Shown here in pieces: positions 8,920-64,000 of a DNA stretch of 64,000 nucleotides. The stretch's first letter is position 1. The number at the start of each line of letters is the position of its first letter. Origin of the DNA: an uncultured Candidatus Saccharibacteria bacterium (GTDB taxonomy: Bacteria; Patescibacteriota; Minisyncoccia; JAHISW01; Tagabacteraceae); NCBI GenBank assembly GCA_964601305.1, contig CAZRMW010000004.1, forward strand, positions 434 through 64,433. Direction: 5' to 3'. The notes under the pieces were generated by a model. That model did no database searches. It had not been told where the DNA came from and saw nothing but the letters and a program-made list of their open reading frames with translations. The position numbers and the translations under genes are program-made.

Positions 8920-9372
8920 ATGGATATAGATACAAATAGAATTAAATCTTTGCGAGACAAAACAGGAGTTTCTATAATGCTTTGTAAAAAAGCGCTGGAG
9001 GATTCTGGTGGTGACGAAGACAAAGCTTTAGAATGGCTAAAGAAAAATGGAGTTAGTGTTGCTGAAAAAAAATCAAGTAGAGATACAAAATCAGGTTTGG
9101 TGGAAGCGTATATACACAACAACGGGCAAGTTGGAGTACTTTTAGAAATAAAATGCGAGACGGACTTTGTTGCAAAAAACCCAGACTTTAAAGAGGTGGC
9201 ACATAACATAGCTATGCAGATTGCTGCTTCAGATCCTGCAGATGTGGATTCTTTGTTAGAGCTAGATTACATAAAAAATTCTGATTTAACTGTTTCTGCA
9301 TATATAAACGAGGCAATACAAAAATTTGGAGAAAATATGGAGATAACTCGATTTGAACGTTTTGCATTATAA
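8920..9372 (+). CDS. tsf: Elongation factor Ts, short form (150 aa).
   Basis: IKSLRDKTGVSIMLCKKALEDSGGDEDKALEWLKKNGV is the UBA-like N-terminus, and GVLLEIKCETDFVAKN is the core. Confidence 0.8.
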   Translation: MDIDTNRIKSLRDKTGVSIMLCKKALEDSGGDEDKALEWLKKNGVSVAEKKSSRDTKSGLVEAYIHNNGQVGVLLEIKCETDFVAKNPDFKEVAHNIAMQIAASDPADVDSLLELDYIKNSDLTVSAYINEAIQKFGENMEITRFERFAL

Positions 9373-9851: not shown

Positions 9852-10100
9852 ATGTATTTTACTTATGTGTTAGTAAGCAAAAAAGATAGTAATTTATATA
9901 TAGGTTTTTGTATTGACTTAAAGAAAAGAATGAATGAGCATAATCAAGGATTAGTCGTGAGTACAAAACACAGAAGACCGATGGAATTAATTTATTATGA
10001 AGCTTGTAAAAACAAAAAAGATGCTATAAAACGAGAGAAGGTTTTAAAAACAGGTTTTGGAAGAGTTTATTTAAAAAAGAGGAATAGTTTAGAAGATTAA
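9852..10100 (+). CDS. GIY-YIG nuclease family protein (short, UPF0213-like, homing-endonuclease-type).
   Basis: 82 aa with YFTYVL...LYIGFC...KKRMNEHNQG, a GIY-YIG motif pair. Confidence 0.7.
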   Translation: MYFTYVLVSKKDSNLYIGFCIDLKKRMNEHNQGLVVSTKHRRPMELIYYEACKNKKDAIKREKVLKTGFGRVYLKKRNSLED

Positions 10101-10108
10101 TAAAAAGT

Positions 10109-10185
10109 GCCGATGTAGCTCAGTTGGTTAGAGCAACGGTTTTGTAAACCGTAGGTCGTCAGTTCGAATCTGACCATCGGCTCCA
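10109..10185 (+). tRNA. tRNA-Thr (anticodon UGU), with CCA encoded.
   Basis: The sequence is GCCGATG TA GCTC AGTTGGTTAGAGC A ACGGT TTTGTAA ACCGT AGGTC GTCAG TTCGAATC CTGAC CATCGGC T CCA. It folds as a cloverleaf with a 7-nt anticodon loop and TGT at positions 34-36. Confidence 0.85.
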
Positions 10186-10235: not shown

Positions 10236-10505
10236 ATGACAATACGAATGAGACATACTAAATCTCACACAAAAAATAGGCGTTCGCACCATGGTATGAA
10301 AAAAGCGAATATTTCTTTGTGTGAAAAATGTGGAGAGCCAAAACTTCCTCACAGAGTTTGTGCTAATTGTGGTACCTATAAAAAGAGAAGTATTTTGGAT
10401 GTGCTTAAAAAACTTACAAAAAAAGAAAAGAAAAACAAAGAAAAAGAACTAGAAGCACAAGAACAAGCAAAAGGCCTAAGTGCCGAAGAACTTTCAAAAA
10501 AATAA
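10236..10505 (+). CDS. rpmF: Ribosomal protein bL32 with a Lys/Glu-rich C-terminal extension.
   Basis: TKSHTKNRRSHHGM...CEKCGEPKLPHRVCANCGTY matches the L32 zinc ribbon. Confidence 0.8.
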   Translation: MTIRMRHTKSHTKNRRSHHGMKKANISLCEKCGEPKLPHRVCANCGTYKKRSILDVLKKLTKKEKKNKEKELEAQEQAKGLSAEELSKK

Positions 10506-10514
10506 AAACAATTT

Positions 10515-11444
10515 ATGGCAAATAGACATTTATCAAGAAGTATAGCAATGCAGGTTCTTTTTGAATTGGATTTTAACGATAGTAAAAAGAATAAAGCCGA
10601 AGAAATCTTAAAAAGAAATCTCAAAGAATTTGCGCCAGGTCTGGACGACAGTAAATTTGTTGAAAAGATTGTGAAAGGTGTTTTGAAAGAGCAAAAAAAG
10701 ATAGACACAATAATCAAAAAAACAGCCCCTGAGTGGCCTTTGGAACAGATTGCGATTATAGACAGAAATGTTTTAAGGATAGGTCTTTATGAGCTCCTTT
10801 TTGGTAATCCGAAAGATGTGCCTAAAAAGGTAGCTATAAACGAGTCAATTGAACTCGCAAAAAGTTTTGGCGGGGAAACATCCGGCAAGTTTGTTAATGG
10901 TGTTTTAGGGACTGTTTATAGAGAATTGCCAGAGTCTGAGAAGGAAGACGATGGGCCAAACAAAGATCCAGAAAAAATAGATTGTGAAGAAAAAAAAGGT
11001 GGTGCCGTTGTGTATAGAAAAGAGAACTTGCCCGACAAGGCGGGAGACGATGTCTTTCTTGCGTTGGTGCACGATGTTTTTGGATACTGGACTCTTTCAA
11101 AAGGCGGGATTGAAGAAGGAGAAGATGAAAAAGAAGGAACAATTAGAGAAATAAAAGAAAAGATGGGGATAGATATAAAAATAAAAGAAAGTTTGGGGGA
11201 AAATGATTATGTAGCATCTCACCCTGAAAAAGGCAGAGTGAAAAAGAGCGTGTTTTATTTCTTGGCAGAGACAAAAGACAAAGGCCTAAAGCTTGGTGAA
11301 TCTGGTGGGCTCGACGATGTTCGCTGGTTTAAATTGGAAGATCTTGAAGGATTAAAAATATACGATGATTTAAAACCAATAATTTTAAAGGCAATTAAGA
11401 TTATAAAAACCCCGCCGAGCGGGGCAAGAAAAATAAATGGATAG
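10515..11444 (+). CDS. nusB: Fusion protein with an N-terminal NusB antitermination factor domain and a C-terminal NUDIX hydrolase domain.
   Basis: The NusB part reads RSIAMQVLFE...VLRIGLYELLFG...KKVAINESIELAKSFGGETSGKFVNGVLG, close to E. coli NusB. The Nudix box is GGIEEGEDEKEGTIREIKEKMGI. It is a single 309-aa ORF with no internal stop. Confidence 0.7.
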   Translation: MANRHLSRSIAMQVLFELDFNDSKKNKAEEILKRNLKEFAPGLDDSKFVEKIVKGVLKEQKKIDTIIKKTAPEWPLEQIAIIDRNVLRIGLYELLFGNPKDVPKKVAINESIELAKSFGGETSGKFVNGVLGTVYRELPESEKEDDGPNKDPEKIDCEEKKGGAVVYRKENLPDKAGDDVFLALVHDVFGYWTLSKGGIEEGEDEKEGTIREIKEKMGIDIKIKESLGENDYVASHPEKGRVKKSVFYFLAETKDKGLKLGESGGLDDVRWFKLEDLEGLKIYDDLKPIILKAIKIIKTPPSGARKING

Positions 11445-12129
11445 CTTGAAAGAGTTAGAAAAAAAGATTGGAATAAAATTTAGTAACAAAGATTTATTGC
11501 AAGAAGCCTTAACTCACAGGTCTTTTTTAAATGAGATGAAGGGCGGTGTAAGACACAATGAAAGGCTAGAATTTTTGGGGGACGCTGTGCTTGAGCTTTC
11601 GGTAACTAGATTTCTTTTTTCAAAGTTTGACAAAAAAAACGAAGGAGACCTCACTTCACTGAGGGCAGCTTTAGTAAATTCGAAGATGCTTTTTGAGGTT
11701 GGTGACAAACTTAAAATTTACGATTTTTTAAGGCTCTCAAAAGGAGAGGCGAGAGATTCTGGGAAAGCCAAGAGTTTTATTTTAGCAAATGCTATGGAGG
11801 CTTTGATAGGTGCAGTTTACCTAGATCAGGGTTACGAAGTTGCAGATGATTTTATAATAAAAAACATTTGTTCAAATGTAGATACTGTTTTAGAAAAAAA
11901 GCTATGGCGTGATGCAAAAAGTTTATTTCAAGAAAAATCTCAAGAAGAAATGAGCACAACACCCGTCTACAAAGTTGTAAAAGAAACTGGCCCAGATCAC
12001 AAAAAACATTTTGTTATTGGCGTTTATTTAGGTAGTGAGTTGATTGCGGAGGGCGAGGGGTTTTCTAAGCAGGAGGCACAAATGAAAGCAGCTGAAAATG
12101 CACTAAAAGAAAAAGGTTGGGAAGAGTAA
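11437..12129 (+). CDS. rnc: Ribonuclease III.
   Basis: The ERLEFLGDAVLE catalytic signature and a C-terminal dsRBD are present. The rnc-smc gene order is conserved. Confidence 0.85.
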   Translation: MDSLKELEKKIGIKFSNKDLLQEALTHRSFLNEMKGGVRHNERLEFLGDAVLELSVTRFLFSKFDKKNEGDLTSLRAALVNSKMLFEVGDKLKIYDFLRLSKGEARDSGKAKSFILANAMEALIGAVYLDQGYEVADDFIIKNICSNVDTVLEKKLWRDAKSLFQEKSQEEMSTTPVYKVVKETGPDHKKHFVIGVYLGSELIAEGEGFSKQEAQMKAAENALKEKGWEE

Positions 12130-12132
12130 ACT

Positions 12133-14304
12133 ATGCGACTTAAAAGTCTAAAAATTTCTGGTTTTAAATCTTTCAACAAGAGCACAACTCTTGGTTTTTC
12201 TAATTCTATATCTGCTATTGTTGGGCCAAATGGTTCTGGTAAATCAAACGTTGCAGAGTCTATTGCGTGGGTTTTGGGTGAGCAATCTGTAAAAAATTTG
12301 CGCGGGAAAAAGGGGGAAGATCTAATTTTTAACGGATCAGTTTCTTCTCCAAAAATGAATAAAGCATCGGTGTCTTTAATTTTTTCGAAAACACCCCGCC
12401 GGGCGGGGCAAGAAGTCTCAGAAGAGATAGTCGTTTCTCGTACTGTTTATAGAGACGGAGTTAATGAATATTTTATGAATAATACCAGAGCCAGGCTAAA
12501 AGATATTATAGAATTTTTAAACAAAGAGGGTTCTGGAGTTGTAAAACACCATATTATTAGACAAGGGGAGGCCGACCACATTTTAAATTCAAGCATAAAA
12601 GAAAGAAGAGATTTAATAGAAAATGCTCTCGGTCTTAAAATATATAAGATAAAAAAAGAAGAGGCTGAGAGAAAACTACTAAAAACAGAAGAAAATATAG
12701 AGCAAGTAAATTCTTTAAGAAAGGAAATACAGCCTCATTTGCGTTTTTTAAAAAAACAAGTTGCAAAAGCAAACGAATCTGTGGAGCTTAAAGAAGAGTT
12801 AAAAAATATTTGCTCAGAGTATTTTTCTTGGTCAGAAAACTGGATAAATCAAAGTTTGGAGAAAATTCAAGTGAATTTAACAGAGTTTAATGAAAAGATA
12901 GAAGGAAAAGAAAAAGAAATAAAAAGTTTTGAGGGTGAGGTAAAAAATTTTGAAAAAGAAAGAGAGAGATCAAGCACCATAAGAAACAAAATAAGTGATT
13001 TGGAAAGAGAAATAGGTAGGCACGAGGGGGCACTTTTTCAGATGAGAAAAACAGTGGAAAATAAAAAAGAGAAAACCCTAAACTCACAAAGTGAGTTGGG
13101 CAAGGAAGAGATAAAAATTAGATTTAGTTTTAGAGAAGTAGAAAATTTTGCAAAATACTTAGAAAAAGAAATAGAAAGGGCTTTTGGGGTGAGCGATGTA
13201 GAAAGTATTAAAAAAATACTAATATCGATCAAAAAAGAAGCAAGGTTTCTTTTTAAAAAACCTAACAGCAACCAGAAAGAAGAGCAAAAAGAAAACAATG
13301 AGACAAAGGAGTCTCTCAAGAAAATGGAAGCAAAATACAAAGAATTGCTAGTGGCTTTGGGTGACGTGAAAAAAGAAGAAGAAATCTTGCAAAAAGAAAG
13401 CAGAAAAGTATTAGACTCAGAGAGACAGCTTTATAAAATAAAAATGGAGGCAAGCGAACTAACAAACAAGAGAAATAATTTTAAAAATAAAAAAGAAGAG
13501 TTTTTGTCTAAAAAAGACTTTGTTTTTAAATACAAAAGTGAGTTGGAAAAATTCTTAAAAGAAAAAATTAAATATAATCAGACAAAGACAGATGTTGGTA
13601 ATTTTTCAGAAGAAACTTTAGAGAGGAAGAAAATAAAAATAGAAAGATTAAGAATAAAGCTAGAAGAAAGCGGTGGAGTGGGAGAAGAAATGATAAAAGA
13701 ATATGAAGAAATTAGTGGGAGAGACAATTTTTTATTAAAGGAAACTTCTGATTTAGGAGAATCATCTAAGTCTTTAAGGGTGCTAATAAAACAACTCGAA
13801 GAAAGATTAGACACTGATTTTAAAAAAGGAATTTCAAAAATTAATATAGAATTTCAAAAGTTTTTTGAAGCAATGTTTAATGGGGGAAAAGCGGAGTTGA
13901 GAATTGTAAAAGGAAAAGCAAAAATTGTTGACGAAGATAGTTTTCAAGAAGAGGGCGTAGACATAAAAGTAAGTTTGCCGAGAAAGAAAATAAATTCTCT
14001 AGGCATGCTTTCTGGTGGAGAAAGGGCGCTTACCTCTATTGCTCTTCTTTTTGCTTTGTCTCAAGTTAATCCCCCGCCGTTTTTAATTTTAGATGAAACA
14101 GACGCGGCGCTAGACGAATCTAATTCTAGAAAATATGCACAGATGCTTAAGAAGTTGAGTAGTAAAACCCAATTGATACTAATTACACACAATAGAGAAA
14201 CTATGAACATCGCCGGTATTTTATACGGAGTTACCATGGGAGGCGATGGTATATCAAAATTGCTTTCTATAAAACTAGAAGACGCCGAAGAGATGGTAGT
14301 TTAA
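12133..14304 (+). CDS. smc: SMC-family chromosome segregation ATPase, condensed form (723 aa).
   Basis: N-terminal Walker A GPNGSGKSN. Long coiled coil. C-terminal signature LSGGERALTSIALLFAL and Walker B LILDETDAALD. It follows rnc as in Firmicutes. Confidence 0.7.
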   Translation: MRLKSLKISGFKSFNKSTTLGFSNSISAIVGPNGSGKSNVAESIAWVLGEQSVKNLRGKKGEDLIFNGSVSSPKMNKASVSLIFSKTPRRAGQEVSEEIVVSRTVYRDGVNEYFMNNTRARLKDIIEFLNKEGSGVVKHHIIRQGEADHILNSSIKERRDLIENALGLKIYKIKKEEAERKLLKTEENIEQVNSLRKEIQPHLRFLKKQVAKANESVELKEELKNICSEYFSWSENWINQSLEKIQVNLTEFNEKIEGKEKEIKSFEGEVKNFEKERERSSTIRNKISDLEREIGRHEGALFQMRKTVENKKEKTLNSQSELGKEEIKIRFSFREVENFAKYLEKEIERAFGVSDVESIKKILISIKKEARFLFKKPNSNQKEEQKENNETKESLKKMEAKYKELLVALGDVKKEEEILQKESRKVLDSERQLYKIKMEASELTNKRNNFKNKKEEFLSKKDFVFKYKSELEKFLKEKIKYNQTKTDVGNFSEETLERKKIKIERLRIKLEESGGVGEEMIKEYEEISGRDNFLLKETSDLGESSKSLRVLIKQLEERLDTDFKKGISKINIEFQKFFEAMFNGGKAELRIVKGKAKIVDEDSFQEEGVDIKVSLPRKKINSLGMLSGGERALTSIALLFALSQVNPPPFLILDETDAALDESNSRKYAQMLKKLSSKTQLILITHNRETMNIAGILYGVTMGGDGISKLLSIKLEDAEEMVV

Positions 14305-34530: not shown

Positions 34531-34935
34531 GTTCGTTTTGAGTATCATAAGCCGAATTCTGTTTTCACTAAATAGTGAATGTAGTCATTTATCTGTCGCG
34601 TTAGTTACCTAACGGATCAAGCGACACAGACTAGGCACTAGCCACTAGGGACTAGTTACTAGAATACGGTCTTGCACTTGGGTAGGAATTTAGCACGTTT
34701 CACCTCTAATATTACTATTAGAGCTCGCCCAGTCATTCGACTGGGCGATTTTATCTTTGCAGATAAAATCGTCTCTGTTCGCATCCCGTGGATTACTCCA
34801 GAAGGGTATTACCCTCTACCTTGCTGCTTTGTCTTGTTTTAACCACGCTTAGACAAAGCAAGTGTTCGGACTTTCCTCTCCGATGCTCGCCTTTGGCGAG
34901 AGCGGAGCAACTACTCAACTCAAAACTACTACAAG
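34531..34935 (-). ncRNA. rnpB: RNase P RNA (bacterial type A-like).
   Basis: On the minus strand the conserved elements appear in order. P4 5' strand GAGGAAAGTCCGAAC. P3 hairpin CTCGCCAAAGGCGAG. P8/P9 GGGTAATACCC and GGAGTAATCC. ACAGAGA junction. AGGTGAAACGTGC matches CR-III. The L15 region TAGGTAAC. AGATAAATGACT matches CR-IV. P18 hairpin. ACAGAATTCGGCTTATGA matches CR-V and completes P4. P1 pairs GTTTTGAGT with ACTCAAAAC. Confidence 0.8.
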
Positions 34936-39764: not shown

Positions 39765-42071
39765 ATGCAAGAGAACAAAAAAACAACTGAAAATATACGC
39801 AATTTTTGTATTATTGCACACATAGACCATGGTAAATCTACCTTGGCTGATAGGCTATTGGAATTAACAAATACAGTTGAAGAAAGGAAAATGAAAAATC
39901 AAGTTTTAGACCAAATGGAACTTGAGAGGGAAAGAGGTATAACTATAAAAATGCAGCCTGTTAAAATGATTTACCTGATAAACCATTTTAACCGCGGACT
40001 TACGCAGAAAAAGACGCAGAAAAACGCGGAAAAGCTTTTGTATAGCGATCTTACTTATAAGATTCGTGGGATATTATTTAATGTTAGAAAAAAAATTGGG
40101 TTAGGCCACAAAGAACAAGTTTATCATAATGCGTTAGAAATAGAATTTAAAAATGCAGGGTTGAGATTTGAGAGCAAAAAGAATATTCCAATTTTATACA
40201 ATAACAAAAAAATAGGCATGTACCAGCCTGATTTTTTGGTAGAGGATAAGGTTATGATTGAATTAAAAGCCCTGCCAGAAATAGGAAGAACGCAGAGAGA
40301 GCAGATTTGGTCTTATCTAAAAGGGTGTGAATATAAACTTGCTTTGTTGGTTAATTTTGGTTCTAGGGATTTGGAAATTAAAAGAATTGTTTACGATACA
40401 GCTCGGGAGTTTTCTGCGTCTTCTGCGTTAAGTCTGCGGGATTCAGCGGGAGTGGAAGATAAGATTGAGAATTATATTCTCAATCTTATCGACACTCCAG
40501 GGCATATAGATTTTTCTTACGAAGTTTCCAGGTCTTTAAAGGCTGTCGAGGGAGCAGTGCTTTTGGTTGATGCCACACAAGGAGTGCAAGCACAAACTAT
40601 TTCTAATCTAGAAATAGCAAGATCTCTCGATTTAGTAATTGTACCAGTGATAAACAAGATAGATAGTCCACTAGCAAGAACAGACGAGGTAAAGAAAGAA
40701 ATTGTGGAGATACTTAATTGTAAAGAAGAAGATGTTTTGGAGGTGTCAGCAAAAACTAGCGAGGGGGTAGAAAAACTTCTTGAAGAAGTCATCTCTCGTG
40801 TTCCTTCTCCGCGTCGAAGCCAGGCTTTGACGCAAAATTTGAAAGCTCTAGTTTTCGATTTTGAATACTCTTCGCATAAAGGGATAATACTTTATGTTAG
40901 GATTATGGGTGGATCTATAAAAAAGGGAGACAAAGTTTTTCTTTTTCAAACCGGCAAAGATTTTATTGCTAGCGAAGTGGGTATTTTTACCCCATCTCCA
41001 AAAAGTAAAAATAGTTTAGAAAATGGAGAAATAGGATATATAATAACTAGTCTGAAAGAAACAAACATTGCTTCTGTTGGTGATACTTTGTTTTCTTTTT
41101 CTGAAAAAAATAATCCAGATTTATTACCACTGAAGGGGTACAAAACACCCTCGCCAGTAGTTTGGGCTAGTATTTATCCAGAATCTCAAGATGATTTTAT
41201 GAGCCTGAGACAATCACTAGAAAGGCTTAGTTTGGCAGATAGCTCTTTAAGTTTTGAAGAGGAAGAAAGCGGTATTTTGGGGCGTGGATTTAGGTGTGGT
41301 TTTTTGGGAATGCTACACCTTGAGATTGTTGCAGAGCGTCTTAAAAGAGAGTTTAATCTTGATTTGATTGTAGCTACTCCAAGCGTCGTTTATAAAATTG
41401 AAGATCAAAATGGCAATGAGAAAGAAATATATTCAGCAGCACTTTTTCCAGAAAGTCATCAAATAAAAAAAATTTTTGAGCCGTGGGTAGACATAAAAAT
41501 AATGACTCCTTTTGAAAAAATGAATGACGTAATGCAGGTACTTAAAAGACACAAGGCAATAATTGGTGATACTGAAGATTTTGGTAGTGACAGAATAGTA
41601 ATAAAAAATCAAATGCCACTTAGAGAGATGATGAACAATTTCTTTGAGGATTTAAAGAGTGCTACATCGGGCTATGCATCACTTAGCTACGAAATTATAG
41701 ACGAAAGACCCGGAGACCTTGTTTGTTTAAAAGTTTTGTTAAACGATGAGGTTATTCCTGCTTTTTCAAAAATTGTAGAAAGGGGAGATATACAAAGAGA
41801 GGCGAAAAATTTAGCTGAAAAACTGAAGAAATTTTTACCTAAAGCTCTGTTTGTTATAAAAATTCAGGTAAAAGCCTTGGGAAGAATTTTGGCAGCTCAA
41901 AGAATTTCGGCTTTAAAAAAGGATGTGACAGGGCATTTGTACGGGGGAGATATAAGCAGAAAACAAAAACTTTGGAAAAAACAAAAAAAGGGTAAAGAAA
42001 AATTAAAAAAACACGGGAAGGTAAATATTCCTCACAGTGTTTTTATAAATATGATAAAAAATAGGGATTAG
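39765..42071 (+). CDS. lepA: Elongation factor 4 (LepA) carrying a ~165-aa in-frame insertion between the G2 and G3 motifs.
   Basis: FCIIAHIDHGKSTLADRLL, GITIKMQ, [insert], LIDTPGHIDFSYEVSRSL, VVPVINKID, plus the LepA C-terminal domain. The total is 768 aa against ~600 typical. Confidence 0.85.
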   Translation: MQENKKTTENIRNFCIIAHIDHGKSTLADRLLELTNTVEERKMKNQVLDQMELERERGITIKMQPVKMIYLINHFNRGLTQKKTQKNAEKLLYSDLTYKIRGILFNVRKKIGLGHKEQVYHNALEIEFKNAGLRFESKKNIPILYNNKKIGMYQPDFLVEDKVMIELKALPEIGRTQREQIWSYLKGCEYKLALLVNFGSRDLEIKRIVYDTAREFSASSALSLRDSAGVEDKIENYILNLIDTPGHIDFSYEVSRSLKAVEGAVLLVDATQGVQAQTISNLEIARSLDLVIVPVINKIDSPLARTDEVKKEIVEILNCKEEDVLEVSAKTSEGVEKLLEEVISRVPSPRRSQALTQNLKALVFDFEYSSHKGIILYVRIMGGSIKKGDKVFLFQTGKDFIASEVGIFTPSPKSKNSLENGEIGYIITSLKETNIASVGDTLFSFSEKNNPDLLPLKGYKTPSPVVWASIYPESQDDFMSLRQSLERLSLADSSLSFEEEESGILGRGFRCGFLGMLHLEIVAERLKREFNLDLIVATPSVVYKIEDQNGNEKEIYSAALFPESHQIKKIFEPWVDIKIMTPFEKMNDVMQVLKRHKAIIGDTEDFGSDRIVIKNQMPLREMMNNFFEDLKSATSGYASLSYEIIDERPGDLVCLKVLLNDEVIPAFSKIVERGDIQREAKNLAEKLKKFLPKALFVIKIQVKALGRILAAQRISALKKDVTGHLYGGDISRKQKLWKKQKKGKEKLKKHGKVNIPHSVFINMIKNRD
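39978..40478 (+). mobile_element. IVS-type insertion within lepA. It encodes a GxxExxY-family (TIGR04256-like, PD-(D/E)xK-like) domain and is bounded by ~30-bp imperfect inverted repeats.
   Basis: The GHKEQVY motif and NALEIEF are present. The left arm aaccgcggacttacgcagaaaaagacgcagaaaaacgcgg at 39990-40029 is the reverse complement, with ~85% identity, of the right arm gagttttctgcgtcttctgcgttaagtctgcggg at 40407-40440. Confidence 0.65.
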
Positions 42072-45281: not shown

Positions 45282-49354
<4,073 letters not shown>

Positions 49355-51746: not shown

Positions 51747-52330
51747 TAGACCTTGGCAAGATGAGTTGTTCCAAATTTCACCATTTCACCGTAACTTCAG
51801 CAATGGAGGCTAAAATGGTAGGTTTTCGAATAAGTTAGGGCTTACCAGTTGACCTGACCAACTGGTGCCCACGTCGCCGGGCTAGATGCGGTTTTTCGCG
51901 GGCGGCAAGAACATAGTCAACCTTTGTATTCTAGCCCCCGGCGGCTATTGTCGGGGGCATCCTTAAAAACCTTCAAAGAACCCGATGAAAGGCGGTAAAA
52001 ATGAATTTGTTACTTTACGAGTGATAGAACTTCGCGAAGAGCAAACACACTTTTTCGAACCATACAGCGTGCGATGATCCATCCGGCAAGGCGGGGCCAT
52101 GTAGTAAACCGAGTTTTGGTACCACTGGAGGGTGTTCTCGGGGTTTGATGTAGAGGCTTGGGCGGCCAATGCATAATTCAAAACACTGACACTTTGTGGG
52201 AACTCCGCGGCAGGCGGGCACGAGGTAGGACCTCAAAAGAATCCCGACTGGGGAATAAAAAGAGTACTCAGTCTAAACAAAATTAGTCAACAAGAAAGCC
52301 TCGGGCGCAAATGCGCTCCGGGGCTTCTCT
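51747..52330 (+). ncRNA. Candidate large structured noncoding RNA of ~580 nt. It is GC-enriched and ORF-free, lies between a consensus promoter and an intrinsic terminator, and is of unknown class.
   Basis: Its GC content is far above the genome background. Multiple complementary segments are present: GCCGGGCTAG with CTAGCCCCCGGC, GCCCCCG...CGGGGGC, and ACCAGTTGACCTGACCAACTGGT. Only short spurious ORFs occur on either strand. The terminator AAGCCTCGGGCGC-AAAT-GCGCTCCGGGGCTT plus a T-run is at 52286-52330. Confidence 0.5.
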
Positions 52331-57726: not shown

Positions 57727-57961
57727 TTTTTATTTTTTATAAAAAGGTACAACTCTCGTGCTATAGCATAGGTGTTGTTCCTATTTACTTTTTTCTTAAG
57801 GTGTGGTAACTATAAATCAGTTAGTTTTTTGACAGCATCACATTGGCTAGAGTCGCGTTGTTTTTACAAAAAATTTTTTTTGCGAGAACAGGGCAGGTTG
57901 ATTGCTTAATTAACAGCAATTTTTTAACCAATCCCGCCGAGCGGGGCAAGGAGTAAACAAA

Positions 57962-63394: not shown

Positions 63395-63403
63395 TTTGCT
63401 TGA

Positions 63404-63710
63404 CTTTTTATTTTTATAGAATACAATTATTTGTACTAATAGATTATGTCTATTAGTTGTTTTTTGAGAACTGAATTAAGAGAAACACAATTTGTGCAAC
63501 AAATATTTTTTAACACATCATAATATCTTTTATTTTGTTCCGTTCTGATCTTACTCACGAATGAAGTGAGTGATTTGTAAGATCTGAACCCCGAGATAAA
63601 TTCTTAGAATTTATTTTTCGGGGTTCGTATTATTGCCACGAAAAATGAAATTATTTAAATAATTTCATCTCGTGGCTCTAATAAATACAATCACGATCCT
63701 CGTGAGTATT
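63404..63710 (+). promoter_or_regulatory. rRNA operon promoter and 16S leader. It contains several long hairpins that are likely processing stems.
   Basis: TTGACT-like box at ~63404. Hairpins GATCTTACTCAC...GTGAGTGATTTGTAAGATC, CCCCGAGATAAATTCT-TAG-AATTTATTTTTCGGGG and CCACGAAAAATGAAATTATT-TAA-ATAATTTCATCTCGTGG. Confidence 0.5.
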
Positions 63711-64000
63711 TATTGAGAGTTTGATCCTAGCTCAGGATGAACGCTGGCGACGTGGATAAGGCATGCAAGTCAAGGGGGTTTAATTTATTAAACAACCGGC
63801 AAACGGGGTAGTAACACGTAGGAATCTGCCCTAATCTCGGGAATAACCCATCGAAAGATGGACTAATACCCGATAGTCCCTTCGGGGTAAAGGTGCTCTT
63901 CGGAGTTTCCGGATTAGGATGAGCCTGCGGGCTATCAGCTTGTTGGTGGGGTAAAAGCCCACCAAGGCGATGACGGCTAGGGGAGGTGAGAGCCTGACCC
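63711..64000 (+). rRNA. rrs: 16S ribosomal RNA, 5' portion. It continues beyond the window end.
   Basis: The sequence begins TTGAGAGTTTGATCCTAGCTCAGGATGAACGCTGGCG, the universal 5' end and 27F site. GC rises downstream, and conserved helices such as ACACGTAGGAATCTGCC follow. Confidence 0.9.

What the first reader, a model, noticed from the sequence alone, without database searches (positions are those of the whole stretch)
10515..11444. NusB-NUDIX hydrolase fusion protein
A single uninterrupted 309-aa ORF joins a canonical NusB, highly similar to E. coli NusB through KFVNGVLG, to a complete Nudix domain with the box GGIEEGEDEKEGTIREIKEKMGI. NusB is normally a stand-alone ~140-aa antitermination factor. 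Fusion to a Nudix enzyme hints at coupling rRNA antitermination complexes to nucleotide or RNA 5'-cap-like (NAD or Np4A cap) surveillance or decapping. The gene also ends in the GC palindrome CCCGCCGAGCGGGG, just before the rnc start.
Basis: partly seen in the sequence, partly recalled or inferred. Interest (0 to 1): 0.55.

Follow-up and report, generated by a model that had tools for sequence, protein, structure and literature searches.

The report
NusB fused to a Nudix domain
This is a real gene, conserved across Parcubacteria-type (candidate phyla radiation) bacteria, that tethers the rRNA antitermination factor NusB to an Ap4A-hydrolase-like Nudix domain next to the RNase III gene; it hints at a link between rRNA transcription and nucleotide groups on RNA 5' ends, but this copy and at least a third of its relatives have altered catalytic residues.

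Summary
The 309-aa ORF at 10515..11444 is real. It has a bona fide NusB half (TIGR01951 131 bits, cut-off 88), a flexible linker of about 25 aa, and a Nudix fold closest to Ap4A/ApnA hydrolases (Aquifex aq_158, CT771, NUDT2). It is not an assembly artefact. The same DNA appears in two other assemblies. All 120 best protein clusters and 80 of 80 best species genomes have both domains, 79 of them as one ORF. The order rpmF–nusB::nudix–rnc holds in 79 of 80.

- The Nudix box is not complete. Here the last Glu of REUxEE is Lys. Across 236 family members 35% lack at least one of the five key box residues, yet the nucleotide-stacking and phosphate-binding residues stay at 95% or more. Binding, not hydrolysis, looks like the common function.
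- The GC palindrome is one copy of a dispersed genome-specific repeat, not a nusB–rnc signal.

The window's own rRNA leader has promoter, 5' hairpin and boxA-like element within about 35 nt, so NusB would sit next to the transcript's 5' end. Best guess (inferred): a NusB-tethered module that binds, and in canonical members hydrolyses, the 5'-terminal nucleotide polyphosphate or cap. I found no paper describing this fusion.

The parts
10515..11444 (+). nusB::nudix fusion ORF, 309 aa
   Evidence: Identical DNA in two other assemblies.
10515..10925 (+). NusB domain (aa 1-137), seven helices
   Evidence: Pfam and TIGR01951 above cut-offs. AF2 pLDDT above 90. Foldseek to T. maritima NusB (TMt 0.86) and to Aquifex NusB in the NusB-NusE-BoxA complex (TMt 0.87-0.88). 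F126 aligns to Aquifex F122, which stacks on BoxA U8; D83 aligns to E81.
10926..10994 (+). Flexible linker (aa 138-160). Family consensus begins E-x-GEPGKD; this copy reads ELPESEKEDD.
   Evidence: pLDDT below 50 at aa 145-151 and pTM 0.52. Linker length 12-35 aa, mostly 24-28, in 79 genomes, and it is the least conserved segment. Rare in-frame stops fall exactly here.
10995..11408 (+). Nudix-fold domain (aa 161-298), Ap4A-hydrolase-like
   Evidence: Pfam NUDIX. PDB sequence hits NUDT2 (2.7e-9), Aquifex aq_158, CT771, C. elegans Ap4A hydrolase. Foldseek 3i7u E 2e-11, TMt 0.87.
11103..11171 (+). Nudix box GGIEEGEDEKEGTIREIKEKMGI (aa 197-219)
   Evidence: Read directly from the sequence. Compared with the family.
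11160..11162 (+). AAG codon for Lys216, replacing the last Glu of REUxEE
   Evidence: The nearest relative has GAA. Glu in 222 of 236 family members.
11025..11042 (+). Lineage-specific 6-aa insertion NLPDKA (aa 171-176) in a beta-hairpin
   Evidence: Gap in 97% of 236 homologues. pLDDT dips here.
11410..11424 (.). GC palindrome, core of a dispersed ~20-nt repeat. It encodes part of the lineage-specific tail TPPSGARKING.
   Evidence: The tail is absent from more than 90% of homologues and from the nearest relative.
10236..10505 (+). rpmF (ribosomal protein L32), conserved upstream neighbour
   Evidence: Pfam. Present upstream in 79 of 80 genomes.
11437..12129 (+). rnc (RNase III), conserved downstream neighbour, 8-nt overlap with the fusion ORF
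   Evidence: Pfam. Present downstream in 79 of 80 genomes.
12133..14304 (+). smc (short, 723 aa), next gene in the conserved cluster
   Evidence: Pfam. Present in 70 of 80 genomes.
63400..63427 (+). Predicted rRNA promoter TTGACT-N16-TACAAT
   Evidence: 10 of 12 match. Prediction only.
63435..63457 (+). Predicted 5'-terminal leader hairpin (boxB-like position)
   Evidence: RNAfold -8.6 kcal/mol, z -5.3. An equivalent hairpin is found in 30 of 31 related leaders.
63458..63470 (+). boxA-like element TGTTTTTTGAGAA (followed by ctGAAT), the presumed NusB-S10 binding site
   Evidence: The composite motif YTTTGANAA-N1-4-GAAT occurs in 18 of 109 related leaders on the forward strand, 0 on the reverse strand, and 0.1 on average after shuffling. 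The 9-mer alone is not significant.
63709..64000 (+). 5' end of the 16S rRNA gene
   Evidence: Rfam RF00177, 225 bits.

Best explanation
SHOWN:
- The gene encodes one polypeptide. A functional-looking NusB, which keeps the aligned BoxA/S10-contact residues checked, is joined by a disordered linker of about 25 aa to a Nudix-fold domain of the Ap4A-hydrolase / NUDT2 type.
- This architecture is conserved in Parcubacteria/Paceibacterota-type genomes.
- It sits in a conserved rpmF–nusB::nudix–rnc(–smc) cluster.
- Across the family the nucleotide pocket is nearly invariant. This covers the Lys aligned with NUDT2 K42 and the two aromatic residues aligned with the adenine-stacking Y82 and F128.
- The catalytic and metal-binding glutamates have been lost many times independently. 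This copy has lost one (E216K).

INFERRED:
- The NusB half, with S10, binds the boxA-like element of the rRNA leader.
- That element lies about 20-40 nt from the transcript start, just after a 5'-terminal hairpin. The tethered Nudix domain can therefore reach the 5'-terminal purine nucleotide with its tri- or diphosphate or Np4N-type cap.
- It binds that end. In members with an intact box it also hydrolyses it, in the manner of RppH or NUDT2.
- This would fix or mark the 5' end of the leader during co-transcriptional folding and RNase III processing.
- In this window's protein, Lys216 probably weakens or abolishes hydrolysis, leaving a 5'-end or nucleotide binding role.
For: - Domains and fold.
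- Two independent domains on a flexible tether: pTM 0.52 and linker pLDDT below 50.
- Conservation of the fusion: 120 of 120 top clusters; 80 of 80 top species genomes, 79 as one ORF.
- Synteny with rnc in 79 of 80 genomes.
- Pocket residues D187, W192, T193, K196, Y232, W271 and Y283 are at 95% or more even in box-variant members, while box Glu16 is lost in 66 of 236.
- Mapping to NUDT2 K42, Y82, F128 and E58. Roles of those residues: PMC4734340 and PMC8616924.
- Leader anatomy in the window and in relatives.
- RsmB is a precedent for a NusB-like domain that carries an rRNA-directed enzyme.
- In one lineage a stop separates the two halves, and there the Nudix carries its own Rho_N/SAP-like nucleic-acid-binding tail.
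Against: - There is no biochemical data for any member.
- The transcription start is predicted, not mapped.
- The 109 comparison leaders come from CPR-type 16S loci that are not proven to belong to fusion-encoding genomes.
- The boxA-like 9-mer alone is not enriched in the window.
- The pocket residues are generic to Ap4A hydrolases, so they fit free Ap4A as well as an RNA 5' end.
- The score against RppH models is far below cut-off (30 against 118 bits).
- No 5'-monophosphate-dependent RNase could be identified among the ORFs checked in the window.
- Frequent loss of catalytic residues argues against hydrolysis as the core role.
Confidence: 0.4

Rival explanations
1. Free-nucleotide sensor or local hydrolase. 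The Nudix half binds, and in canonical members degrades, a free dinucleoside polyphosphate or related alarmone such as Ap4A, Ap5A or possibly (p)ppGpp. It thereby tunes NusB-dependent rRNA antitermination to stress or growth state, as the Nudix domains of NrtR regulators or CF Im25 do.
For: - The best structural and sequence matches are Ap4A/ApnA hydrolases.
- The adenine-stacking pair and the phosphate-binding Lys are invariant, while catalytic Glu residues are dispensable.
- CF Im25 binds but does not hydrolyse Ap4A within an RNA-processing complex (PMC2425470).
- Non-enzymatic Nudix regulators are a recognised class (PMC5389931).
- The NrtR Nudix domain is among the fold hits.
Against: - The flexible tether and low pTM give no sign of an allosteric interface between the halves.
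- About two thirds of members keep a fully canonical catalytic box, which a pure sensor would not need.
- The model does not explain the conserved linkage to rnc or the proximity of boxA to the 5' end.
Confidence: 0.25
2. Functionally independent fusion. A housekeeping Ap4A hydrolase gene became fused to nusB in a streamlined genome for co-expression only, and the two halves work separately.
For: - Tiny CPR genomes are prone to gene fusion.
- The two domains fold independently.
- In-frame stops in the linker occur in two lineages without loss of either half.
- The closest stand-alone relatives are not next to nusB.
Against: - A housekeeping hydrolase should keep its catalytic residues, yet 83 of 236 members have lost at least one of the five key box residues, in at least about 30 independent events. 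Their domains remain otherwise conserved.
- The fusion and its gene order are maintained across lineages only 52-76% identical to each other.
- No compensating Nudix gene lies nearby in variant lineages.
Confidence: 0.18
3. Structural subunit. The Nudix fold serves as a protein-protein or protein-RNA scaffold in the rRNA antitermination complex, filling a role like that of the enzyme-fold protein SuhB in E. coli, with the nucleotide pocket being vestigial.
For: - SuhB, an inositol monophosphatase, is an integral rrn antitermination subunit (PMC6614801; PMC8632103).
- Catalytic residues are dispensable in many members.
- Protein-interaction roles are documented for Nudix folds.
Against: - The positions that stay invariant are the substrate-pocket residues typical of Ap4A hydrolases, not a new surface.
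- Presence or absence of SuhB in these genomes was not tested.
Confidence: 0.12
4. Assembly or sequencing artefact. A missed stop or frameshift joined two adjacent genes.
For: One of 80 genomes (L016) has frameshifts in the Nudix half. Two metagenomic contigs have an in-frame TAA in the linker.
Against: - The same DNA is found in three assemblies.
- There is one ORF in 79 of 80 species genomes.
- All 120 top clusters carry both domains.
- The linker carries its own conserved motif (GEPGKD) read in the same frame.
Confidence: 0.01

Closest known systems
Stand-alone NusB (E. coli, T. maritima, Aquifex aeolicus)
   Same: The N-terminal 137 aa pass the NusB equivalog model. They have the all-helical fold (TM 0.86-0.88) and keep the Phe that stacks on BoxA U8 and the acidic residue that reads it. 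A boxA-like element is present in the organism's rRNA leader.
   Different: It carries about 170 extra C-terminal residues (linker plus Nudix domain). The position of E. coli D118 / Aquifex K118 is Thr. The gene lies between rpmF and rnc.
Nudix Ap4A/ApnA hydrolases (human NUDT2, Aquifex aq_158, Chlamydia CT771, C. elegans Ap4A hydrolase, Thermus Ndx1) and their relative RppH
   Same: Same fold (TMt up to 0.87), 24-28% identity, the xWTxxKG loop, the phosphate-binding Lys and the two adenine-stacking aromatics. NUDT2 and RppH also act on RNA 5' tri- or diphosphates.
   Different: The known enzymes are stand-alone with intact boxes. Here the domain is tethered to NusB, Pro-Pro in the loop is Leu-Ser, the stacking Tyr is 13 rather than 17 residues after the box, and catalytic Glu residues are often replaced (Lys216 here). 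RppH models score far below cut-off.
Non-catalytic Nudix modules (CF Im25/NUDT21, NrtR regulators, TRPM2 NUDT9-H; the last from my own knowledge)
   Same: A Nudix fold with box glutamates replaced but the ligand pocket kept, used as a binding module inside an RNA-processing or transcription-regulatory protein.
   Different: These belong to different Nudix subfamilies and have different partners. In the NusB fusion about two thirds of members still have a canonical box, so the family is a mix of probable enzymes and probable binders.
RsmB/Sun 16S rRNA m5C967 methyltransferase
   Same: A NusB-like N-terminal domain is fused to an enzyme that acts on rRNA. RsmB models hit the NusB half at E 8e-19.
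   Different: The partner domain in RsmB is a SAM methyltransferase. The RsmB N-domain is a NusB paralogue, whereas here the N-domain passes the true NusB equivalog model.
SuhB in the E. coli rrn antitermination complex
   Same: A small-molecule-phosphatase-type fold recruited into the NusB-containing rRNA transcription complex.
   Different: SuhB has an unrelated fold (inositol monophosphatase), is a separate polypeptide and binds NusA and RNA polymerase. Nothing shows that the Nudix domain makes such contacts.
Dcp2 mRNA decapping enzyme
   Same: A helical N-terminal regulatory domain followed by a Nudix domain that acts on RNA 5' ends. It appears among the Foldseek hits over about 250 columns.
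   Different: The rmsd is about 15 Å and identity 12-15%. The helical domain is not NusB-like, so this is an analogy of architecture only.

Membership tests
NusB (transcription antitermination factor) | Matches the curated equivalog and family models above cut-off | tested here: met
   TIGR01951 131.1 bits (cut-off 88.35). PF01029 125 bits (cut-off 23).
NusB (transcription antitermination factor) | All-alpha seven-helix NusB fold | tested here: met
   AF2 shows helices 2-137 with pLDDT above 90. Foldseek to 1tzv TMt 0.86 and to 3r2c TMt 0.87-0.88.
NusB (transcription antitermination factor) | Residues that read BoxA at the NusB-S10 interface (Aquifex F122 and E81) and the aromatic at E. coli Y18 | tested here: met
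   F126 and D83 are invariant in the family, and F16 is at least 90% conserved. Aquifex K118 / E. coli D118 is Thr122 here.
NusB (transcription antitermination factor) | A BoxA element in the rRNA leader of the same organism | tested here: inconclusive
   TGTTTTTTGAGAA at 63458-63470 fits a strand-specific conserved leader motif. It has C3U and C5U changes relative to E. coli BoxA, and the 9-mer alone is not enriched.
NusB (transcription antitermination factor) | Heterodimer with S10 (NusE) and antitermination activity | not testable with these tools
   Needs biochemistry or complementation of an E. coli nusB deletion.
Nudix hydrolase superfamily | [quoted passage not shown] | tested here: met
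   52.4 bits (cut-off 21.1). Foldseek E 2e-11 to 3i7u.
Nudix hydrolase superfamily | Complete Nudix box GX5EX7REUXEEXGU | tested here: not met
   The window reads G-x5-E-x7-R-E-I-K-E-K-M-G-I, with the last Glu as Lys216. In the family 153 of 236 are canonical and 83 of 236 are not.
Nudix hydrolase superfamily | Mg-dependent pyrophosphohydrolase activity | not testable with these tools
By analogy, the aligned NUDT2 E58A mutant is inactive.
Nudix Ap4A hydrolase subfamily (NUDT2-like) | Tyr/Phe downstream of the box plus a second aromatic that sandwich the adenine, and a Lys in the xWxxxKG loop that binds phosphate | tested here: met
   Y232, Y283 and K196 align to NUDT2 Y82, F128 and K42 and are 98-100% conserved. 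The Tyr lies 13 rather than 17 residues after the box.
RppH (RNA pyrophosphohydrolase) | Matches RppH equivalog models above cut-off | tested here: not met
   Best hit PRK00714.1-3 at 30.5 bits against a cut-off of 118, covering only aa 178-220.
NudC-type NAD-cap decapping Nudix | Match to the NAD(+) diphosphatase model, including its SQPWPFPxS motif | tested here: not met
   NF001299 E 0.12, 11.8 bits against a cut-off of 158. The motif is not present in the sequence.

The most novel reading that the evidence does not exclude
In Parcubacteria the rRNA antitermination factor NusB carries its own reader, and in many lineages eraser, of the RNA 5' end. Once NusB-S10 docks on BoxA, the tethered NUDT2-like Nudix domain captures the 5'-terminal (p)ppN or Np4N cap of the nascent pre-rRNA, which a 5' hairpin holds next to BoxA. 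It anchors the 5' end to the elongation complex for RNase III stem formation. Where the box is intact, it converts the end to a monophosphate, licensing leader decay. This would be a new, co-transcriptional coupling between antitermination and 5'-end chemistry.
Probability: 0.3. Interest if true: 0.8.

Novelty: new variant of a known kind. Interest (0 to 1): 0.55.

Why it matters
NusB is treated as a small stand-alone adaptor. Here a whole bacterial lineage has attached to it a domain from the enzyme family that handles Ap4A alarmones and RNA 5' triphosphates or caps, and keeps the gene beside RNase III.

If the domain acts on the nascent rRNA 5' end, it would reveal a direct physical link between antitermination-complex assembly and 5'-end recognition or processing. 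It would also give a natural system in which catalytic and binding-only versions of the same tethered Nudix can be compared.

If it senses free Np4N instead, it would be a direct route from an alarmone to rRNA synthesis in organisms with minimal regulatory repertoires.

Either way, current annotation calls it only 'NusB' or 'MutT/NUDIX' and so hides the feature.

Tried and rejected
1. Assembly artefact: rejected.
2. The GC palindrome as a conserved nusB–rnc regulatory hairpin or terminator: rejected.
   - It is a dispersed repeat, with 5 hits against 0.15 expected.
   - Only 1 of 79 relatives has any GC hairpin before rnc.
   - On the + strand no T-run follows it.
3. The repeat as an insertion into coding sequence: it explains the C-terminal tail here, but the smc copy replaces a variable loop of equal length, so insertion is not demonstrated there.
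4. The boxA call from the 9-mer alone: not significant, 35 against 22.5 ± 5.3. It was accepted only after comparative analysis.
5. An ancestral operon of separate nusB and nudix genes: not supported.
   - Two stand-alone relatives lie in unrelated contexts.
   - The apparent split genes are a late-start gene call (L208) or single in-frame TAA stops in the linker (L209 and L210).
6. Compensation of degenerate boxes by an adjacent canonical Nudix gene: no association, 2 of 40 against 0 of 39.
7. Counting the family:
   - The '595' includes generic NusB pattern hits and is not a count of fusions.
   - One search returned mostly partial gene calls.
8. A second NusB or Nudix in the window: none.
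9. RNase J/Y/E in the window: none among the ten large ORFs scanned.
10. The afdb50 fold library was unavailable.
11. Literature: three searches found no description of the fusion, and the 2017 Nudix-clan survey does not mention NusB.
Full report
**1. The observation**

The window holds a single ATG-initiated ORF at 10515..11444 (+) of 309 aa.
- Pfam finds NusB (PF01029, aa 7-136, 125 bits, cut-off 23) and NUDIX (PF00293, aa 190-281, 52 bits, cut-off 21).
- The NCBI equivalog model for NusB, TIGR01951, is passed at 131 bits against 88.
- E. coli NusB aligns at E 1.5e-15, with a near-identical KVAINExIELAKSFG…KFVNGVL stretch.
- The quoted box lies at aa 197-219, and the palindrome at 11410-11424, 12 nt before the rnc ATG.
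- The ORF continues past the palindrome and overlaps rnc by 8 nt.

The box reads G-x5-E-x7-R-E-I-K-E-K-M-G-I, so the last Glu of the REUxEE core is Lys216 (codon AAG at 11160-11162).

**2. It is not an artefact**

- The identical gene, including the Lys codon and the palindrome-encoded tail, occurs at 100% DNA identity over 1722 nt in contigs assembled from two other samples.
- In a database of 5.8 billion proteins, all 120 best clusters (59-76% identical, 275-337 aa, many independent contigs) carry both Pfam domains. Sources that name them mostly call them just 'NusB'.
- A scan of species-representative genomes kept 80 loci, all matching across aa 1 to about 297. Their names are Parcubacteria/Paceibacterota lineages (Nomura-, Niyogi-, Yonath-, Giovannoni-, Vogel-, Kaiser-, Zambryski-, Taylor- and Lloydbacteria, Minisyncoccia).
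- In 79 of the 80 loci the two halves lie in one frame with no stop between them. The exception, L016, has several frameshifts.
- The figure '595 relatives' includes hits to a generic NusB peptide pattern and is not a count of fusions.

**3. Context**

- Pfam confirms the local gene order rpsB, tsf, a hypothetical gene, a GIY-YIG gene, tRNA-Thr, rpmF, nusB::nudix, rnc, smc, rpsP.
- The order rpmF–nusB::nudix–rnc holds in 79 of 80 genomes, and smc follows in 70.
- No other NusB or Nudix is encoded in the window.

**4. Anatomy**

- AlphaFold2 with a 52-sequence alignment gives mean pLDDT 89 but pTM 0.52, and pLDDT below 50 at aa 145-151. This indicates two well-folded domains with no fixed mutual orientation.
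- The linker is 12-35 aa long, mostly 24-28, between the invariant E137 and E159. In the family it begins with a conserved GEPGKD motif; this copy reads ELPESEKEDD at that point. It is otherwise the least conserved segment.
- The N-terminal half superposes on T. maritima NusB (TMt 0.86) and on Aquifex NusB from the NusB–NusE–BoxA complex (TMt 0.87-0.88).
- Using the alignment and the contacts described in PMC3177189, Aquifex F122, which stacks on BoxA U8, corresponds to the invariant F126. Aquifex E81 corresponds to the invariant D83. E. coli Y18 corresponds to F16.
- The C-terminal half is closest to Ap4A/ApnA hydrolases. By sequence: NUDT2 2.7e-9, Aquifex aq_158, Chlamydia CT771, C. elegans Ap4A hydrolase and Thermus Ndx1. 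By fold: 3i7u E 2e-11 with TMt 0.87, then CT771, M. tuberculosis Rv2985 and NUDT2.
- RppH and NudC models score far below their cut-offs.

**5. The key finding: the pocket is conserved but catalysis is not**

- Among the 120 closest homologues the box is nearly always canonical. The window's EK is an exception shared with a few others.
- Among 79 more divergent species representatives only 40 keep all five key box residues (E7, R15, E16, E19, E20).
- In 236 non-redundant full-length members, 153 are canonical and 83 (35%) are not. The 'RE' glutamate is replaced in 66 (K 22, V 14, A 14, I 9 and others), E19 in 33 and E20 in 14.
- On a neighbour-joining tree of the NusB halves this requires at least about 33 changes. 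That tree is noisy, so the number is rough, but nine different replacement residues show multiple events.
- The 'RE' glutamate aligns with NUDT2 E58. The E58A mutant is inactive on PPP-RNA (PMC8616924).
- The Nudix halves of the variants are only slightly more diverged than expected from their NusB halves (residual −0.024 against +0.013).
- D187, F189, W192, T193, K196, Y232, W271 and Y283 remain at 95% or more in the variants.
- K196, Y232 and Y283 align with NUDT2 K42, Y82 and F128. Those are the phosphate-binding Lys and Tyr and the two aromatics that sandwich the adenine ring (PMC4734340; PMC2425470).
- The family-wide constant is therefore a purine-nucleotide-polyphosphate pocket. Hydrolysis is retained in many lineages and dispensable in many others.
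- CF Im25 is a documented precedent. It is a Nudix that lacks two box glutamates and binds but does not hydrolyse Ap4A and ATP, within an RNA-processing complex. Non-enzymatic Nudix proteins are a recognised class.

**6. The NusB target in this organism**

- The window ends with the 5' end of a 16S rRNA gene at 63709.
- Upstream lie, in order:
  - the best promoter match, TTGACT-N16-TACAAT, at 63400-63427;
  - a hairpin at 63435-63457;
  - TGTTTTTTGAGAActGAAT at 63458 onward.
- The bare 9-mer TGYTYTTTR is not significant in the window, at 35 matches against 22.5 ± 5.3 expected.
- I therefore fetched loci sharing this 16S 5' end; 109 leaders were usable.
- Unbiased k-mer counting recovered boxA-like words.
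- CTTTGAMAA occurs in 35 of 109 leaders on the forward strand, 3 on the reverse strand, and 0.6 on average after shuffling.
- The composite YTTTGANAA-N1-4-GAAT, which the window fits, occurs in 18 forward, 0 reverse and 0.1 after shuffling.
- In 42 leaders with a strong promoter, the element starts a median of 45 nt after the −10 hexamer (IQR 38-78). In the window the distance is 30 nt.
- In 30 of 31 leaders the RNA between the predicted start and the element folds far better than shuffles (median z −2.9), with the helix starting within the first few nucleotides.
- This matches the boxB–boxA–boxC order of rrn nut-like sites. [quoted passage not shown]
- Caveats: the transcription starts are predicted, and these leaders are not proven to come from genomes that encode the fusion.

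**7. Mechanism**

- What is shown:
  - the architecture and its conservation;
  - the flexible tether;
  - the subfamily assignment;
  - the split between a conserved pocket and variable catalytic residues;
  - the linkage to rnc;
  - the layout of the leader.
- My preferred inference (confidence about 0.4): NusB–S10 docks on BoxA about 20-40 nt from the 5' end. The tethered NUDT2-like domain then binds the 5'-terminal nucleotide with its polyphosphate or Np4N cap, and in canonical members hydrolyses it.
- NUDT2 works on base-paired and hairpin 5' ends, which fits the 5' hairpin.
- The genetic link between nusB and rnc in E. coli fits the conserved operon.
- In one lineage an in-frame stop separates the halves, and there the Nudix protein has acquired a C-terminal Rho_N/SAP-like nucleic-acid-binding tail. 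This is consistent with a need to be held on nucleic acid.
- For this window's protein, Lys216 at a metal-ligand position probably leaves binding but little hydrolysis.
- Rivals:
  - a free-Np4N or alarmone sensor or local hydrolase (0.25);
  - a functionally independent housekeeping fusion (0.18), weakened by repeated loss of catalytic residues with retention of the domain;
  - a SuhB-like structural subunit (0.12), weakened because the invariant residues are those of the pocket;
  - an artefact (0.01).

**8. The palindrome**

- CCCGC-N3-GCGGG with at most one mismatch occurs 5 times in the window against 0.15 expected; none of 100 shuffles reached 5.
- The shared unit is about 20 nt, CCCCGCCGRGCGGGGCAAGRA. 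Copies lie at 11410, at 12394 (inside smc), at 45922 (minus strand, inside pheT) and at 57933 (just 5' of a Shine-Dalgarno sequence).
- Only 1 of 79 relatives has any GC hairpin before rnc.
- The nearest relative ends …KLIKIE* 6 nt before rnc, without the repeat.
- The repeat therefore explains this lineage's extra tail TPPSGARKING and the overlap with rnc. It is not part of the conserved system.
- The smc copy does not add length relative to homologues.

**9. Comparison with the known, and novelty**

- The N-terminal half qualifies as a NusB.
- The C-terminal half is a Nudix-fold domain of the Ap4A-hydrolase type, but it fails the full-box criterion in this copy.
- Related precedents exist:
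  - RsmB, a NusB-like domain plus an rRNA enzyme;
  - CF Im25, NrtR and NUDT9-H, which are binding-only Nudix modules;
  - SuhB, an enzyme fold in the rrn complex;
  - Dcp2, a helical domain plus a Nudix acting on 5' ends.
- None of these is this architecture.
- Three full-text searches and the 2017 Nudix-clan survey show no description of a NusB–Nudix fusion.
- The sequences are in public databases under generic names.
- I rate it a new variant of a known kind. It is of moderate-to-good interest because it makes a specific hypothesis directly testable: that antitermination is coupled to 5'-end or Np4N chemistry.

Noticed in passing
window 11410-11424, 12394-12408, 45922-45936 (-), 57933-57945; weaker copy at 52083: A dispersed ~20-nt GC-rich palindromic repeat (CCCCGCCGRGCGGGGCAAGRA) in a 35%-GC genome, with 5 hits against 0.15 expected. 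Three copies lie inside ORFs (nusB::nudix, smc, pheT) in different reading frames, and one lies just upstream of a Shine-Dalgarno sequence. A second all-GC hairpin, CCGCCAGAGGCGG, occurs three times (19746, 30816, 45318).
   Followed up: partly
window ~63527-63545; loci L081-L200, about 40 nt upstream of the 16S pattern: The motif TTGTTYCGTT(C) is the most widely shared element of CPR-type 16S leaders (53 of 109 forward, 1 reverse, 0.1 after shuffling). It usually lies about 43 nt before the 16S 5' end, but about 180 nt before it in this window, where extra hairpins intervene. Its function is unknown.
   Followed up: partly
L209 2956-2958; L210 466-468: Two metagenomic relatives carry a single in-frame TAA exactly at the NusB/linker boundary, with the linker and Nudix continuing in frame. 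In L210 the stop replaces the otherwise invariant Glu137. This could be nonsense mutation, sequencing error, or regulated readthrough or reinitiation that yields both NusB and NusB-Nudix.
   Followed up: partly
L210 529-1128 (P0384); P0360: In the lineage with the stop, the Nudix protein has a C-terminal Rho_N/SAP-like helix-extension-helix tail (PF07498, 25.2 bits, cut-off 24.9). The gene order nusB–nudix::Rho_N–rnc is kept.
   Followed up: partly
window 39765-42071: LepA (EF4) carries a PD-(D/E)XK nuclease domain (PF13366, E 5e-32) inserted at aa 95-208 within its GTPase domain.
   Followed up: no
window 8920-9372 and 12133-14304: EF-Ts is only 150 aa; the Pfam EF_TS match covers profile positions 1-75 of 204. 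SMC is only 723 aa. Both are much shorter than in model bacteria, as far as I recall.
   Followed up: no
window 9852-10185, compared with L205 2023-2577: Between tsf and rpmF this genome has a small GIY-YIG ORF (82 aa) plus tRNA-Thr(TGT). The nearest relative has a PaaX_M-domain gene there instead, so this is a variable spot in an otherwise syntenic region.
   Followed up: no
L208 1791-2249 and 2590-3501: A Zambryskibacteria genome has a second, stand-alone Nudix gene just upstream of rpmF. Its fused copy has a strongly degenerate box (RRKVPLELGV). The public gene call for the fused copy starts inside the linker and misses the NusB half.
   Followed up: yes
window 11025-11042 (aa 171-176): A 6-aa insertion, NLPDKA, in the first beta-hairpin of the Nudix domain is specific to this lineage (gap in 97% of homologues).
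   Followed up: no
window 34531-34926 (-): A bacterial class A RNase P RNA scores only just above the Rfam gathering threshold (106.7 against 100 bits), suggesting a divergent or reduced RNase P RNA.
   Followed up: no
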